DNA of 64,000 nucleotides, taken from Octopus vulgaris. Its lineage: Eukaryota. The position numbers and the translations under genes are program-made. The stretch lies in the NCBI GenBank assembly GCA_951406725.2, contig OX597820.1, forward strand, positions 125,488,001 through 125,552,000, in the 5' to 3' direction. Below are positions 6,830-42,329 of this stretch, one piece after another. Position 1 is the first letter of the stretch; the number at the start of each line of letters is the position of its first letter. Under the pieces are notes generated by a model that had not been told where the DNA came from, searched no databases, and saw only the letters and a program-made list of their open reading frames with translations.

Positions 6830-8052
6830 AAAACAAGCAAGCATCATAGTCAGAAACAAAAGTGGCTAAGGAATATCTCAGGGAATTCCAAATACAACAA
6901 ATTCCAGAATTAGGCGTACTAGAAACAAGTACAGAAAAGCTAACCGTATTATAACCGGTGCTAAAACTGCTGCCTTAGATATTATTGATAAATGGCAAAA
7001 AATACCACTGAATTACCTAAAGAGAACTAATAGTGCTGATGTTGACAAAGCCTTAACTCATTAATGGTTTGTGTCTTCAGGCTTAAAATCAGGAACAGAA
7101 GGGTTTATTATAGCAGCCCAAGATCAATGCATACAAGGAACTACCAGGCCAGCATAGTAAAGAAGGTATAGTCCAACATGTCATGTCATTGCAGCCCAAG
7201 ATCAATTCTGTATCTACTAGGAACTACCAGGCCAACATATTAAAATATGGCAGTAGGCCAACATGTGTATGTCAACATCAAAATGAAACTATTAATCATG
7301 CTGTCTCCATGTGCAGTCTTCTTGTGACTACAGAGTATCTCAACAGGCATGAGAGAGCAGCACAATATATTCACTGGAGAATTTTCAAAAATCTGGGCCT
7401 GCCACATGATAAAAACTGGTGGGAACACAAACCACCTCTAGTTCTTGAAAATGATCCCATCATACTCCTCTGAAACGTCACCATTGAAACTGACATAAAG
7501 ATAGATGCGAATAGGCCAGACGTTATATTGAAATACTTCAGACAAAAGCCATGCCTCCTCATTAATAAGACTGTCCCAATCGATATAAACGTATCTGTCA
7601 AGACCTACCAAAAACCGAGCAAGTATAAAGATTTTGAAATAGAAATTTGCAAAATGTGGAACCTCAAGACTAAAACAATATCTCTTGTCATAGGTGCAAA
7701 AGGGGATGACACCTACCTATCTCAGATACCAGAAATCCCCAAAATTGCAGAAATTCAAGATAGTGCTCATGGCAACTGTCCATATCCTACGTAAAATATT
7801 GTGTATCTAATTTCAAATTTTAAAACAAACTCATAATTTTCTTATGTTTTCTAGAACATTCTCTAGAACAATACTATGTGCAAATAGAAATTGGCAAAAT
7901 GTGGAACCCCAAGAGGAAAACAATACCTGTTGTCCTATGACACTCGAGGCATAACACCAACATGAACTTCTAACTTGGTGTCTCTTGAGGTCTCTGGGGG
8001 AGATTTGGAGTCAACTTGTACATATACAAAACGAAAGTCAAACATAAAGTAA
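6830..8052 (+). mobile_element. Decayed 3' part of an R4/Dong-like non-LTR retrotransposon (CCHC + restriction-like endonuclease)
   Basis: Translates across stops/frameshifts to SSGLKSGTEGFIIAAQDQ, CQHQNETINHAVSMCSLL..EYLNRHERAAQYIHW, ANRPDVIL..CLLI..VPIDINV..KYKDFEIEICKMWNLKTKTISLVIGA. 3' end runs into (CAA)n(TAA)n. Confidence 0.88.
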
Positions 8053-27887: not shown

Positions 27888-29013
27888 CAAACTGCGTCCC
27901 ACATTATTAGGCAAATCAACCCTCTCTCAATGAATATATTGTTTATCCACTGACTGTTGGCAAAACCCATCTGAGCACATTCTGTTGAAATAAAACGGAT
28001 CTGCAAAGACGCCAATAAATGGCAGCCATTTTTTTATATGGGGCAACATTTCCACCGTCACAAATTATTAGGCAAGTATAATAAATATGATAATCGTGTC
28101 AGAACAAAGGTTTATTTATTCAGTAGTAAAAGTTTTAAAAAATATGCATAAAGGCCTTAATGGTAAACATAATAATAAGTTCGTATGAAAGTAATCGGTG
28201 GATTATGACATGATACAGTTCCTAATGTTTTATGATGGTCCTTCATATTGAAAAGCATTCTTTATGCGCTGATCCGTTGAATTTGTCAAGGTGATGATAT
28301 CTTGTTGTGTCATGCTTAGAGCAGCATCTACAATAGCATCCCAGAGGGCAACATTACGTTTTGGTAATAACAACTCGTCAGGACACACCACAGGTTCATG
28401 CTTGGGTTTATCTCATGGAAGCAAGGTGACCACTCAATCAAACGACCTTCAGAGAAGCCTATTTGCTGCAGGTATTCCTGAGACGGGGCATTATCTTGCA
28501 TGAAGACCAGCTTTCTCTTGATTGAAAGATTTTGCTTTTTGAACCATTGTTGGAAATTTTCCTTTAAGAATGTAATAGGTAATATATGTTTCCGACGCCC
28601 TCCTAATGCCACTTGGAACTTTCCATGTCTTGACGATCATACCTCGACTCGCCTTATCAGCTCTCAACCGGACTGAAATTGGAGAGTGCACAGATATCGT
28701 CACTGTTCGGTGATCTCTTCCCAGTATTTTTGATATTTCTATGGTTGTTTTACATTTTCTAAGCTCTGACACGATGATAGACTTCTCATTCGATGTAAGA
28801 TCACGTTTCTGACCCATGATGACACTTGAAGTGGGCACCTGTCTAATAATCAGACATGTTGCTGCCACTCGATATTGGCCACCGTTTATTTACGTCTGCG
28901 CAGATTTATTTTAACAGAATGGGGGCAGCGAGGTAGTGCCAACAGTCAGTGGGAAAAAAACTGGTTTTGAATGAATATACAGATTGATTTGCCTAAAAAC
29001 ATGGGACGCAATG
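27888..29013 (-). mobile_element. Internally deleted Tc1-like DNA transposon
   Basis: Imperfect ~140-bp TIRs (..TGCGTCCCACATTATTAGGCAAATCAA / TTGATTTGCCTAAAAACATGGGACGCAATG), TA on both flanks. Transposase remnants MGQKRDLTSNEKSIIV..EISKILGRDHRTV and FMQDNAPS..EWSPCFHEINPSMNLW. Confidence 0.9.
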
Positions 29014-33823: not shown

Positions 33824-34620
33824 TACACACACACACACGTATAAAACGTCATACAAAATGATCGCTTATACATGTAATCTAATACCAGCAGCAACTACAA
33901 GAGCTTACACGCTCTGATTTACATACATACAAATAAAAGTAAGTGTGTTTCTATGTGGGCATGTTTAAGAAATGTCTAACTTAGAATTTTAGGTATATCT
34001 CGTTAAGATTATGGTTAGTTCAATATCCATACCAATGCTTGCCATATTTCATTCGTATCACCTGCGACCAATCAAAGCCAACGAGCACGTAATTAGCCGT
34101 TGCAAGTGGATTTGTACGAAGCAGTATTTAAGTAATGAATCGAATTAAAATTTGATTATGACGGATTATGTACACTGTATGACAGAATTCGAGATGAAGT
34201 TAATTAAAGTTTGACTGATTGGTGCAGTAGAACTCTAATGAGTATAATCTATTAATGTACTGGGATTTAGGTATTATTAAAGGATGATTGATATGCAGTA
34301 AGAGTGTTTCGTAATGTCTTAACCATATTTTCACATAAGTGAAATGAATTCTGTAATATGGTAAATTCTATCCTCTCCAGATTATGAAATGCTAACGTGT
34401 ACTTTGAAGATGGTTTGTGATTAGTTTATACACGTACACAGATACACACGCGGGAATACATATATTTATATATATATGTAAATATATTTTACGGAGTTGT
34501 ACTTGCATAGCGAGTGACTTGATCTGAGATCCTGTGCTGGAACGAAAACAATTGCAAAGTGGAAGGTGATTATAAGTCCTTTAAGAAAAGCGTTAGATTC
34601 ACTTCAACATTTAAATTTAA

Positions 34621-34671
34621 TTTGTCAAAATATTTTCGTCGTTTTGAGACCGCAACCTGTTCACTGACAAA
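34621..34671 (-). ncRNA. Minimal hammerhead-like motif with G3:C8 compensatory core
   Basis: Minus strand: TTTGTCA-GTGAACA-g-GTTG..CGAC-GAAA-atat-TT-TGACAAA. Perfect 7-bp stem I, 4-bp stem II, palindromic AATATT stem III. Confidence 0.65.
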
Positions 34672-35146
34672 TAGAGAGAGAGAGAGAGGGGAGAGGGAAG
34701 TGAGAGATAGAGACAGAGAGAGAGAGAGAGAGAGAGAAGTGTTTCCAAAATGGGAAAGTGCATATGGTCCCTATATCATTTTAGCGCCGTATACTCAGAT
34801 TTTCTTCAGAATATTTTGCATCCTTGCTTTACTACTCATCTGATTTTCGTTATAGCTCGTTCATTATATCATATCACATTTTATTACGAGATTTTTCTTT
34901 ATATACCCTTTCAACTTTCGGTCAACGTGTATCATTTAACCTCAAATGATACACGTGCAGTCTTTTGAATCTTATCCTAATATAAATTCAACTTAAACTC
35001 AAAAGTATTAATATGTAAAACTATGTGGACATTATTATTAATAGAATGGAAACGTATAGATTTTATTCCTGTTTTGTAAAGAAATATTAATGAAAATTTA
35101 AACGAAATATATTATCTTCAACTTCCTTAATATTTGGTTTAATAAA

Positions 35147-36729: not shown

Positions 36730-37705
36730 ATGTATGTATATATGTATGCATGTATGTATGTGCAGATTTGTATCTTTTATGCATGTATTCACATGCATAT
36801 AGTTGCATATCTAGACATGCTCATATATATTTAAATGATAAACTTCTGGAAAGTTTTACAGAATTTTTAAGATTGCTGTGATAGAGTAGATTTGTAGTCT
36901 TCGAATTAGCTCTCTCCTCTCTGGTTTCTGTAACACTGCCTAATTGGTATTTAGGCCGTGTATTACATATCCCAGAGCCCCATTAGTTACAGGTATAAAC
37001 CTGAACTTGCAATCTGGATAGAGTAACTGCAGATTTCTTTATAGGTCAGCATAGGCGTTCTCTTTTTCACTGAATTTCAGCTTTATGTTAACATCCGCTG
37101 GGCAGCTAATTTTTAAAACTGTACACAGTTTCTCTTCTCTATCCCAAATCATTATATCAGATCTGTTTTATTCATATTTTATTGAGGACTTCACTAGTAC
37201 ATTCTACAAGTATTTTTTTTTTTTATTATGACTGGGTTTGGCTTCTACCATATTGTGGGTTCTTATTTGTCCTTCCCATGGATTTAATTATACAGTGGCC
37301 TAGCAAGAAGGTCATATCTCATCCGTAGATAAACCGTGGTGACATTTTCGAACAACCGCTTATGATGTGGATAATATCTTCAGTGTGAGCTCCACAAAGT
37401 CTGCATCGGTTGTCACATTTTACTGCTTTTCTTGCATCTCTATCACCTTTGTTCATCAGGTATTTAGTTGATGTTTCTTGTTCCTGGATTGCAAACACAT
37501 ACCCTTCAAAGTGGAAGGTAGTAATCCAGCAATAGGTCCATGATAAACTTCTTTGATGATCGATGTTACTATCATCATGGAGCTTTCTACTAACATATCC
37601 ATGCATAGTCTTCTGTTCACATATGCTCATCATTTCAGCTGATGATACGTTGAGGTAGAGTCGTGCGACGTCTTTGTGCATGCATTCTTGGTTACCAGAC
37701 AAAAA
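36570..37705 (-). mobile_element. 5'-truncated R4/Dong-like RLE non-LTR retrotransposon
   Basis: Minus strand: MHGYVSRKL..FEGYVFAIQEQETSTKY..CRLCGAHTEDIIHIISGCSKM (CCHC), then NRSDIMIWDREEKLCTVLKISCPADVNIKLKFSEKENAY..FIPVTNGALG (RLE). Coding ends ~36830; putative 3' UTR to ~36570; (TATG)n on both sides. Confidence 0.88.
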
Positions 37706-39525
37706 ATGATGCAATAAATGTATTTGTGTGTATGTATGTGTGTATGTATGTATGTATGTATGTATGTAGGTATGTATGTATGTATAAAGGTGCATATACA
37801 TGGCTGGGCGGTTCACATCAGTATATAAGGATTTTTTACCATCGCGTCGTTAAATTTAAAGTTCTAGATAATTATATATTCCTGTAAAAAAACGTATAAC
37901 TCTCTTAACAAACTCTATAGCAAGTGATGACATAGATAAGCATAAACTATTTGAGAAATTATTTCTTGTAATGTAGGAATGTTTAAAGGAAAAATCGATA
38001 ATATGTCGGAAGCAAAGCATTCGCTATTGGTCAAGTTGTCTAATAATTACAATAATAACTGCATTTGTATTATTTAAATTAAATTCTATTACTTAAACTG
38101 TCAGTACAGAAATTTTTCAGTATATTTTATTATAGTAATATAATATAGTTATTTGTTTGAGAAAATGATTATCGTGAAAAAACATCGGTATTTATAAAAA
38201 TAATATTGAGAAGAAGAAATAAGAAAATCATGCGACACGTATGATAAATGTAAATCACAGAAGACGAAAAAAGAAGCATATAAGTTATTTAAGCCGCACA
38301 ACGATATAAAGTGATACATTCTGTTTTAAAATTTCAAAATGAATATTATTCTTGATTTTTATAGTCGAGTTATATTTTGGACTTGGTTTGCTTTTAGGTT
38401 AAATGAATAACCAGAATATTTTAAGATGGTTTATTGCAATACATGCCGCACCCCAAATATTTTATGAGGTTTTTGTAAGCCATAATTGAATAGCTCAGTT
38501 TTATACATGCGGTGACTCCATTATCTTCGACATTTTGTGATAAATTTATGTAACTATCTCTGCAATAAATCATTTCTGAAGTAATCGAAAAAGCAGGAAC
38601 GTTGGCATTTTGGAATACCATTGCCATTATGATTTGGCTGTAGACGTTTCTGCAGTTGAAGAGTACACTTCGCAGTAATATTACTCCATGTGTTATGCCA
38701 CTGAATAGCATTTCTCAGCATGGAGCTTCTACTAAAGACTGGAAATGTCCAATGCATCGTAGACCGAAATTTAGTTGACGCCAGCGTTTAAATATTTGCT
38801 TGCATATGTAATCGGGTACATGCGCATGTGCATGTTTGTATATTTATTATTTCAATAATTGTATATCGGAATAAAATTGGCCCAAAGTCGAGTCATTTGT
38901 AACTGACGCTGTTGTTCGAACGAAGTGTTCAATGTTTACAAATGTTTCTTCATCACTTCCACCTTCAGCGATCTGGTCCAGACAAACATTTTGTTGTTCT
39001 TGGATATCGCAAACAAAGGATCTATTATCACTACGCAGTAATACAACATACATAAAGTTCTCTAACTGTTAACAGACAATGGAGAATCTGGTTTGACCTT
39101 AATCAACACGATAATTAATAGTTTCTTATATTTTGGACCAAGACATGATATTTCTAGAGAACAGTAACATTTCACTACATTGTAGCAGCTTCAGTAATGA
39201 TATTCTGGCAGTGATGCAGAATCTATTTAGGAGTAATTTTGTACTAAAGCTACATTAACTTAGTCAATGTGATGCACATCAGATTTCCTCGTTAGCTCAT
39301 GTCAAACATTTTTAGGAGTATAGTGAGCATACCAACTCTGGTTCCACAGTCTCCAAAGATATTTCATCTCATAGACTTCTCAGTGTATCGCCATTCAATT
39401 GGCTATAGCACTGTGCGCCTTCTTTTGTTTGTCTGCGAAGTTAATACAGAGTGTACAGTAATACTATACATCCACGTAATGGGCCGTTTTTTCTATATAT
39501 ATATAGCAGCGTATGTACACTTTGT

Positions 39526-41747: not shown

Positions 41748-41791
<44 letters not shown>

Positions 41792-41813
41792 GATACCTGT
41801 ACATCATCTCCAA

Positions 41814-41872
<59 letters not shown>

Positions 41873-41900
41873 AGGTTTGGAGATGATGTACAGGTATCAT

Positions 41901-42329
41901 ATATTAGAAGAAATGAGGTAATCAGAAGATCGGATGGTTCATATTTACAGATATTTATTTATATATTACATTTTTTACATAAATATATCATATCATTCAG
42001 ATCATAGCGCTTTCTCCCATTCTAGTGGGGTTTTCAAATCAAAATAATTTTTGCGGGGAATTTTAATCATTTTATAGAGTTTCGTAGTGGTGGAGAGGAA
42101 CAAGACAGCACAATACTTCACCCTCTTGTGCTGTCTTGTTCCTCTCCACCACTACGAAACTCTATAAAATGATTAAAATTCCCCGCAAAGGAATTATTTT
42201 GATTTGAAAACCCCACTAGAATGGGAGAAAGCGCTAATGATCTGAATGATATGATATATATGTAAAAATGTAATATATAAATAAATATCTGTAAATATGA
42301 ACCATCCGATCTTCTGATTACCTCATTTC

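What the first reader, a model, noticed from the sequence alone, without database searches (positions are those of the whole stretch)
34490..34671. Candidate natural G3:C8 covariant hammerhead
The core reads GUGAACA rather than CUGANGA: both partners of the C3-G8 tertiary Watson-Crick pair are swapped while U4, G5, A6, A9 and GAAA are intact. It is enclosed by a perfect 7-bp stem I with a palindromic AAUAUU stem III. Established: C3-G8 pairing is needed for the active fold and compensatory swaps can rescue activity. A double compensatory change is unlikely from neutral decay and would be missed by CUGANGA searches. The cut triplet would be UUU, which is suboptimal.
Basis: partly seen in the sequence, partly recalled or inferred. 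Interest (0 to 1): 0.75.

Follow-up and report, generated by a model that had tools for sequence, protein, structure and literature searches.

The report
Swapped-core hammerhead in Penelope-like retrotransposon
This is a worn end-piece of a jumping gene with thousands of copies, whose hammerhead-shaped RNA motif has two paired core letters reversed (G-C where related families have C-G); the family motif is likely a slow self-cutting RNA that standard motif searches would miss, but cutting is untested and this copy is predicted to be dead.

Summary
The motif is there (minus strand, G3 at 34664). The stretch is the 183-base end of a Neptune-like Penelope retrotransposon: hammerhead, first 30 codons and tail. 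G3:C8 is the family state (1116 of 1235 pattern matches; C3:G8 in 0). Three related families carry the same hammerhead layout with C3:G8 (5460 matches, control 80). For the one with a whole ORF (55% protein identity) it sits at the same place. This is a real compensatory difference, but one event only. Against a strong role for cutting: copies begin at the cut site in only 2 of 94 cases (sister family 1 of 82), and a mispaired G3:G8 form recurs in 3-4% of copies. The engineered swap partly rescues a Penelope-type hammerhead (PMC11167929) and natural U3:A8 is published; I found no natural G3:C8 in the papers I could search, but one key paper was not held. This scan noted the same swap before on other DNA. 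New variant of a known kind; moderate interest.

The parts
34489..34671 (-). 5'-truncated end-piece of a Neptune-like Penelope retrotransposon (pLTR end, ORF start and tail); solo copy, 6% from the family majority, one 9-base deletion
   Evidence: linked to RT/GIY-YIG ORFs in L068 and L124
34665..34671 (-). hammerhead stem I, 5' strand (7 bp); the copy is truncated right here
34658..34664 (-). core positions 3-9, GUGAACA: G3 at 34664, C8 at 34659
34657..34657 (-). extra G between A9 and G10.1, a hallmark position of Penelope minimal hammerheads
   Evidence: PMC4209133
34638..34656 (-). stem II and loop II; family GTCGC/GCGAC, here GTTGC/ACGAC (one wobble, one broken pair, both CpG-type changes)
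34629..34637 (-). G12 A13 A14 and palindromic stem III AAUAUU (A15.1 to U16.1)
34627..34628 (-). U17 and predicted cut site between 34628 and 34627 (triplet UUU)
   Evidence: hammerhead numbering applied; cleavage not shown
34621..34627 (-). hammerhead stem I, 3' strand
34489..34580 (-). first about 30 codons of the retrotransposon ORF; start codon lost here (AGG at 34580-34578) and frame broken
   Evidence: family translation resembles the N-terminus of the sister's 1312-residue frame
34489..34549 (-). about 60-base tail between the family's two preferred 3' ends (inferred two reverse-transcription start sites)
   Evidence: compare PMC11167929
34455..34488 (.). AT-rich, (TA)n-like target flank
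34673..34737 (.). (AG)n microsatellite flank at the truncated 5' end; no target-site duplication seen

Best explanation
The stretch is a decayed end-piece of a Penelope-like retrotransposon whose family carries a minimal type I hammerhead motif with G3:C8 in place of C3:G8; the family motif is likely a slow ribozyme, predicted to need a second copy or the element's own protein, and this particular copy is predicted to be inactive. Shown: identity of the element, family state, homology with C3:G8 families. Inferred: the RNA starts about 60 bases before the cut site; G3 pairs with C8 and the 2'-OH of position 8 still serves catalysis; U17 avoids a G3-C17 trap; cutting, when it happens, would remove the leader ahead of the start codon and so act on expression or turnover of the RNA. 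It is not needed to make the template for insertion, since copies are made from uncut RNA.
For: Family state 1116 of 1235, C3:G8 0; 83 of 86 G3 and 78 of 86 C8 in a sample picked without regard to the core; same core in young, middle and old subfamilies whose loop II differs. RT, C-X3-C-xx-C linker and C-terminal GIY-YIG upstream. The sister family with 55% identity over 815 residues has the hammerhead at the same place with C3:G8; 5460 matches vs 80 control. In 13 representatives of four families U4, G5, A6, G9a, G10.1, C11.1, GAAA and U16.1 are invariant; 92.9% of cells pair and 6 of 12 pairs change on both sides. C3G/G8C partly restores cleavage in a Penelope-type hammerhead that needs its protein (PMC11167929). 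A G3-C8 variant is less active with C17 than with G17 (PMC3884650, passage, data not shown there); this family has U17 in 100 of 101.
Against: One covariation event only; no second G3:C8 family with an ACG-type stem III (23 matches vs 36 control). 5' ends at the cut site in 2 of 94 copies, one of them an internal deletion; background 0.5 per position, p about 0.09. Mispaired G3:G8 in 38 of 1235, against 4 for the reciprocal C3:C8, in several subfamilies including young near-full copies. The youngest sister lineage spread with A9C, so the clade tolerates poor cores. The stem III duplex is barely stable (-0.2 kcal/mol). Representatives are related and were picked with a pattern that fixes several core letters, so their invariance and the shuffle scores overstate the case.
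Confidence: 0.6

Rival explanations
1. The motif is a hammerhead by descent but no longer cuts; its stems and purine-rich core are kept as a protein-binding, packaging or promoter element, and G3:C8 arose by two unselected changes that happen to be complementary.
For: Templates are uncut; G3:G8 copies recur at 3-4%; the A9C sister is the youngest and most numerous listed form; hammerhead mutants do not impair insertion in vitro (PMC11167929); the motif lies just behind the apparent RNA start, where Penelope has an internal promoter (PMC2377424, passages).
Against: Both partners of a pair that forms only in the active fold changed together while neighbours stayed fixed over about 0.7 substitutions per site; other families met in the fetched loci use only C:G or U:A at these positions; no G3:G8 lineage has taken over.
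Confidence: 0.3
2. The motif cuts efficiently in vivo and the cut is a required step that releases unit-length or circular RNA from tandem transcripts, as proposed for Penelope hammerheads.
For: Partial tandems and inverted pairs put two hammerheads on one locus (L124, L138, L143); model proposed in PMC4209133.
Against: No pile-up of genomic 5' ends at the cut site in this family (2 of 94) or the C3:G8 sister (1 of 82).
Confidence: 0.08
3. Chance resemblance: an AT-rich repeat end with an inverted repeat, not related to hammerheads.
For: No Rfam hit; monomer z-score -1.15; two chance-like relaxed matches elsewhere in the window.
Against: Homologous families have the canonical core at the same place; Rfam misses those as well.
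Confidence: 0.02

Closest known systems
Minimal type I hammerheads in the pLTRs of metazoan Penelope-like elements (Cervera and de la Pena 2014, PMC4209133; text parts 1-2 of 4 and supplement parts 1-2 of 3 read)
   Same: Type I order, short stems, unpaired nucleotide between 9 and 10.1, G10.1-C11.1, palindromic 15.2-16.2, place in the pLTR, opposite-strand pairs, mostly solo truncated copies; U17 is common there.
   Different: Their Fig. S3 alignment shows C3:G8, U3:A8 (two S. mansoni families) and one U3-G8 row, and no G3:C8; the extra base is G here, against consensus H.
Hammerhead of the anole Poseidon element PAc and its engineered C3G/G8C mutant (Frangieh et al. 2024, PMC11167929; text parts 1-2 of 4 read)
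   Same: Same swap, partly active; uncut RNA is the insertion substrate; two RT start sites inside the ORF give a tail; AT-rich targets.
   Different: Theirs is engineered and in the Penelope/Poseidon clade, with the cut inside the ORF; here the swap is natural, the element has the Neptune-type linker, and the cut lies about 47-56 bases before the start codon.
Natural U3:A8 hammerheads (Perreault et al. 2011, PMC3088659; section on core variation read)
   Same: Natural covariation of the 3:8 pair.
   Different: U:A keeps pyrimidine at 3 and purine at 8; G:C reverses them.
Neptune clade of EN+ Penelope-like elements (as defined in Craig et al. 2021, PMC8557442; passages read)
   Same: RT followed by a CX2-5CxxC linker and C-terminal GIY-YIG with CCHH; (TA)n targets; inverted 5' copies; tail.
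   Different: Placement among named Neptune or Nematis references was not tested by a tree; the tail is about 60 bases, not 30-40.

Membership tests
Type I hammerhead ribozyme | Three-way junction: stem I closing the motif, stem II, stem III | tested here: met
   Family copies fold stems I and II with pair probabilities 0.94-1.0; cross-family covariation; stem III only as an inferred intermolecular palindrome
Type I hammerhead ribozyme | U4 G5 A6, A9, G12 A13 A14 and A15.1-U16.1 | tested here: met
Type I hammerhead ribozyme | Watson-Crick pair between positions 3 and 8 | tested here: met
   G3:C8 in 1116 of 1235; C:G in relatives
Type I hammerhead ribozyme | Literal consensus C3 and G8 (CUGANGA) | tested here: not met
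   0 of 1235 copies; this is what makes it a variant
Type I hammerhead ribozyme | NUH triplet before the cut | tested here: met
   UUU; NUH rule as stated in PMC8495972 (passage)
Type I hammerhead ribozyme | Self-cleavage after position 17 | not testable with these tools
   Indirect test by genomic 5' ends gave no signal
Type I hammerhead ribozyme | Match to an Rfam hammerhead model | tested here: inconclusive
   No hit for a good family copy, nor for a canonical-core relative
Type I hammerhead ribozyme | Tertiary contact between stem I and loop II | not tested
   Loop II differs between subfamilies; no contact was modelled
Minimal hammerheads of Penelope-like elements | Unpaired nucleotide between 9 and 10.1, G10.1-C11.1, palindromic stem III | tested here: met
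   against PMC4209133
Minimal hammerheads of Penelope-like elements | Located in the pLTR of an RT/GIY-YIG element | tested here: met
   L068, L124, L125
Minimal hammerheads of Penelope-like elements | Cleaves as a dimer or with protein help | not testable with these tools
   Needs an assay
EN+ Penelope-like element, Neptune clade | Single ORF with RT and C-terminal GIY-YIG | tested here: met
   Pfam GIY-YIG E 9e-05, above its cut-off; YVDD and other RT motifs read by eye; Pfam RVT_1 did not hit the 530-residue piece
EN+ Penelope-like element, Neptune clade | CX2-5CxxC linker and CCHH motif | tested here: met
   Read by eye against the definition in PMC8557442
EN+ Penelope-like element, Neptune clade | Inverted 5' copies, partial tandems, tail, (TA)n targets | tested here: met
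EN+ Penelope-like element, Neptune clade | RT groups with named Neptune references in a tree | not tested
   No reference proteins were fetched

The most novel reading that the evidence does not exclude
A successful retrotransposon lineage runs on a naturally reversed catalytic-core pair: the G3:C8 hammerhead cuts, is co-adapted with U17, and its job is to decapitate the element's own mRNA in a dimer- or protein-dependent way (self-limiting feedback), not to make the insertion template. The swap would be natural proof that the active fold is under selection in Penelope elements, and G3:C8 hammerheads would be a class hidden from CUGANGA searches.
Probability: 0.3. Interest if true: 0.65.

Novelty: new variant of a known kind. 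Interest (0 to 1): 0.42.

Why it matters
Why Penelope-like elements keep hammerheads is open: the motifs cut poorly, and mutants do not block insertion in vitro. The 3:8 pair forms only in the active fold, so a natural reversal kept through several subfamilies is an argument that the fold is selected. It also gives a ready set for assay from one genome: C3:G8, G3:C8, G3:G8 and A9C forms of one homologous motif. It would complete the natural series C:G, U:A, G:C and shows that search descriptors should ask for pairing, not letters. The biochemical tolerance is already known from engineered mutants, which limits the surprise.

Tried and rejected
Rfam on the whole window: the 150 listed of 202 matches were microsatellite-driven microRNA-type hits, no hammerhead. 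No second copy in the window, so no partner in cis. Close pairs of copies at about 2.7 kb were segmental duplications, not a full element. Intron reading of the branch-point-like and pyrimidine-rich stretch before the motif (517 exact matches): not supported, since the 34 of 94 copies that start there share no upstream exon; an RNA start site fits better but is inferred. G3:G8 as a basal intermediate subfamily: rejected, it occurs on many backgrounds and in 4 of the first 100 listed of 585 matches of an old subfamily. Family B (L156, L157) as closest relative: rejected, its endonuclease is nearer the 1312-residue family and the tree splits this family from all three others, so direction of change rests on the general C3:G8 consensus. 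Coding constraint from the short upstream frame through the motif: both core forms read open, so it does not explain the swap (inference). Inversion as a single-step cause: neither core is the reverse complement of the other. Expression: no RNA holder listed; all runs were contigs, which cannot show ends; the second laying was cut before the core rows could be seen. Second G3:C8 family with an ACG-type stem III: none above control. Papers not held: Lunse et al. 2017, Przybilski and Hammann 2007, Martick and Scott 2006, and two further ids tried for a 2015 paper and a 2012 review.

Full report
Observation. The minus strand at 34671-34621 holds, in type I order, a 7-bp stem I, core GUGAACA, an extra G, stem II, GAA, the palindrome AAUAUU, U17 and the other strand of stem I. 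The window is a repeat-rich animal sequence with no evident gene among the 47 frames of 110 residues or more and no second copy of the motif. That the genome is an octopus is recalled from the look of its repeats and stated in earlier scan notes; I did not test it.

The family. A DNA search gave 2792 candidates, 40 scored. A 35-base pattern with positions 3, 7, 8 and 9a free has 1235 exact matches, control 0. Of these 42 lack G3 (A 24, T 14, C 4), 81 lack C8 (G 38, T 28, A 15) and 4 lack both; none is C3:G8, so 1116 of 1235 are G3:C8 (counted by hand from the full lists). Departures are independent (Fisher p = 0.35). A 25-base pattern at the ORF start has 4329 matches. In copies picked by it, core and stem III differ from the reference at 2.8% and background sites at 2.5%: inserted copies decay neutrally. 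Contigs of four runs labelled as four organisms cover the motif with no core variant at 5% or more (contigs at least 80% alike only).

The element. [quoted passage not shown] L124 has a 1025-residue frame, a hammerhead behind it and an inverted copy in front. Copies end at two places about 60 bases apart, mostly on (TA)n, as for the two RT start sites of PAc (PMC11167929). The window piece includes the first 30 codons, whose family translation resembles the N-terminus of the sister protein. By the definitions in PMC8557442 (passages) this is Neptune-like; no tree with named references was made.

This copy. It differs from the family majority at 10 of 166 sites, has a 9-base deletion, has lost the start codon, and has two CpG-type changes in stem II that lower the predicted G10.1-C11.1 pairing from 0.99 to 0.09. 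It is cut off at the start of stem I. It is predicted to be inactive.

Covariation. A protein search returned 150 matches: this family, older subfamilies and a sister at 56-60%. The sister (55% over 815 residues) has a hammerhead of the same build at the same place, with C3:G8 and, in its youngest form, A9C. A pattern for that build with C3 and G8 gives 5460 matches, control 80, from at least three families. One of them differs from ours in the core only at 3 and 8 (2 exact matches). On 13 hand-picked representatives, 92.9% of cells pair, 6 of 12 pairs change on both sides, and 3:8 is CG in 9 and GC in 4. These rows are related and were picked with a pattern that fixes part of the core, so this counts as one event. 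The tree separates our family from the other three by about 0.7 substitutions per site; direction rests on the general C3:G8 consensus. Unrelated families met in the fetched loci have C:G or U:A. Between subfamilies, 20 other diagnostic sites in 233 bases fall in loop II and the flanks, with one pair-preserving change in stem I and none in the core, stem II or stem III: modest support.

Against. I mapped 5' ends of 94 copies from the first 100 listed of 4329 places, all on one contig; 4 places already held as long copies were not included and 2 dropped out. Of the 94, 34 start within seven bases about 60 before the cut, 6 run further upstream, and 2 start at the cut, one being an internal deletion (background 0.5 per position). 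In the C3:G8 sister 1 of 82 starts at the cut (70 loci from the first part of 5894 matches). Templates are thus uncut in both, as reported for PAc. G3:G8 is about ten times commoner than expected (38 vs 4; 3 of 86 against a 0.35% background) and lies on several backgrounds, including two young copies with long ORFs. In some inverted pairs only one half has it. I cannot explain this; minor source elements with recombination, or a copying hotspot, are possible.

Mechanism. Most likely the RNA begins just before the motif (inferred) and folds stems I and II. It cuts slowly and only when a second copy supplies stem III or the element's protein assists (inferred from PMC4209133 and PMC11167929). 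G8C alone costs about 10^5-fold and C3G partly restores it (review PMC8495972, passage). U17 may matter, since a G3-C8 variant did worse with C17 (PMC3884650, passage). A cut would separate the leader from the ORF, so it would lower expression or clear surplus RNA rather than prepare the template. I put this at 0.6, a vestigial or non-catalytic motif at 0.3.

Novelty. Natural U3:A8 is published (PMC3088659 section 8; PMC4209133), and the engineered G3:C8 swap is known. Searches found no natural G3:C8, and Fig. S3 of PMC4209133 has none. Lunse et al. 2017, the paper most likely to list such variants, was not held, nor were its supplements, so absence from print is not settled. I also opened PMC6765202, PMC11014351, PMC10085705, PMC6155905 and PMC2377424 (passages) and the first fifth of bioRxiv 10.64898/2026.07.22.740005; none of what I saw reports it. 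Earlier scan notes describe the same swap in this genome and others; they are not independent support.

Verdict. Observation confirmed; interpretation partly supported; a new variant of the Penelope minimal hammerhead; interest 0.42.

Noticed in passing
G000-wide; L074-L093, L116, L117, L128: C8-to-G is about ten times more frequent than the reciprocal or background transversion and occurs on many subfamily backgrounds; in L021, L086 and L087 only one half of an inverted pair has it, which hints that the two halves may come from different RNA molecules or that the site is a copying hotspot.
   Followed up: partly
L137 2942-6877 (+), L138, L143: Young sister family with intact 1312-residue frames and a hammerhead with A9C and a non-palindromic stem III; apparently the most recently amplified of the clade.
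   Followed up: partly
L068 7143-7166; 517 exact genome matches: Branch-point-like and pyrimidine-rich stretch ending in AG just where most short copies begin; intron end or RNA start site not resolved.
   Followed up: partly
L068 7164-7229: A short upstream frame of about 19-22 codons runs through the whole hammerhead and stops before the main start codon.
   Followed up: no
L068 7254, 7275; L016 1533, 1578, 1579, 1599, 1600: A-to-G differences are far commoner in the two small runs guessed to be RNA than in the large runs, as RNA editing of inverted copies would give; run type and individual are unknown, so this is only a hint.
   Followed up: no
L135 7064-7648, L141 9045, L126, L050, L070, L129, L131, L136: Several other minimal hammerhead families in this genome with U3:A8, C3:G8 and U4C cores.
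   Followed up: no
L069 927-3365, L073 6629-7795, L126: A different Penelope-like family with RT and a C-terminal endonuclease-like region lies next to or interleaved with copies of this one.
   Followed up: no
L031, L032 (contig C1): Multi-kilobase inverted duplications that carry the element and are shared between two loci 55 Mb apart.
   Followed up: no
window 41789-41901: Hairpin of inverted arms around a (TA)n run; looks like back-to-back ends of another small element.
   Followed up: no
window 7114-7473, 28491-28889, 37319-37849: Short frames that read like decayed transposon proteins (non-LTR-like and Tc1-like, by recall only).
   Followed up: no
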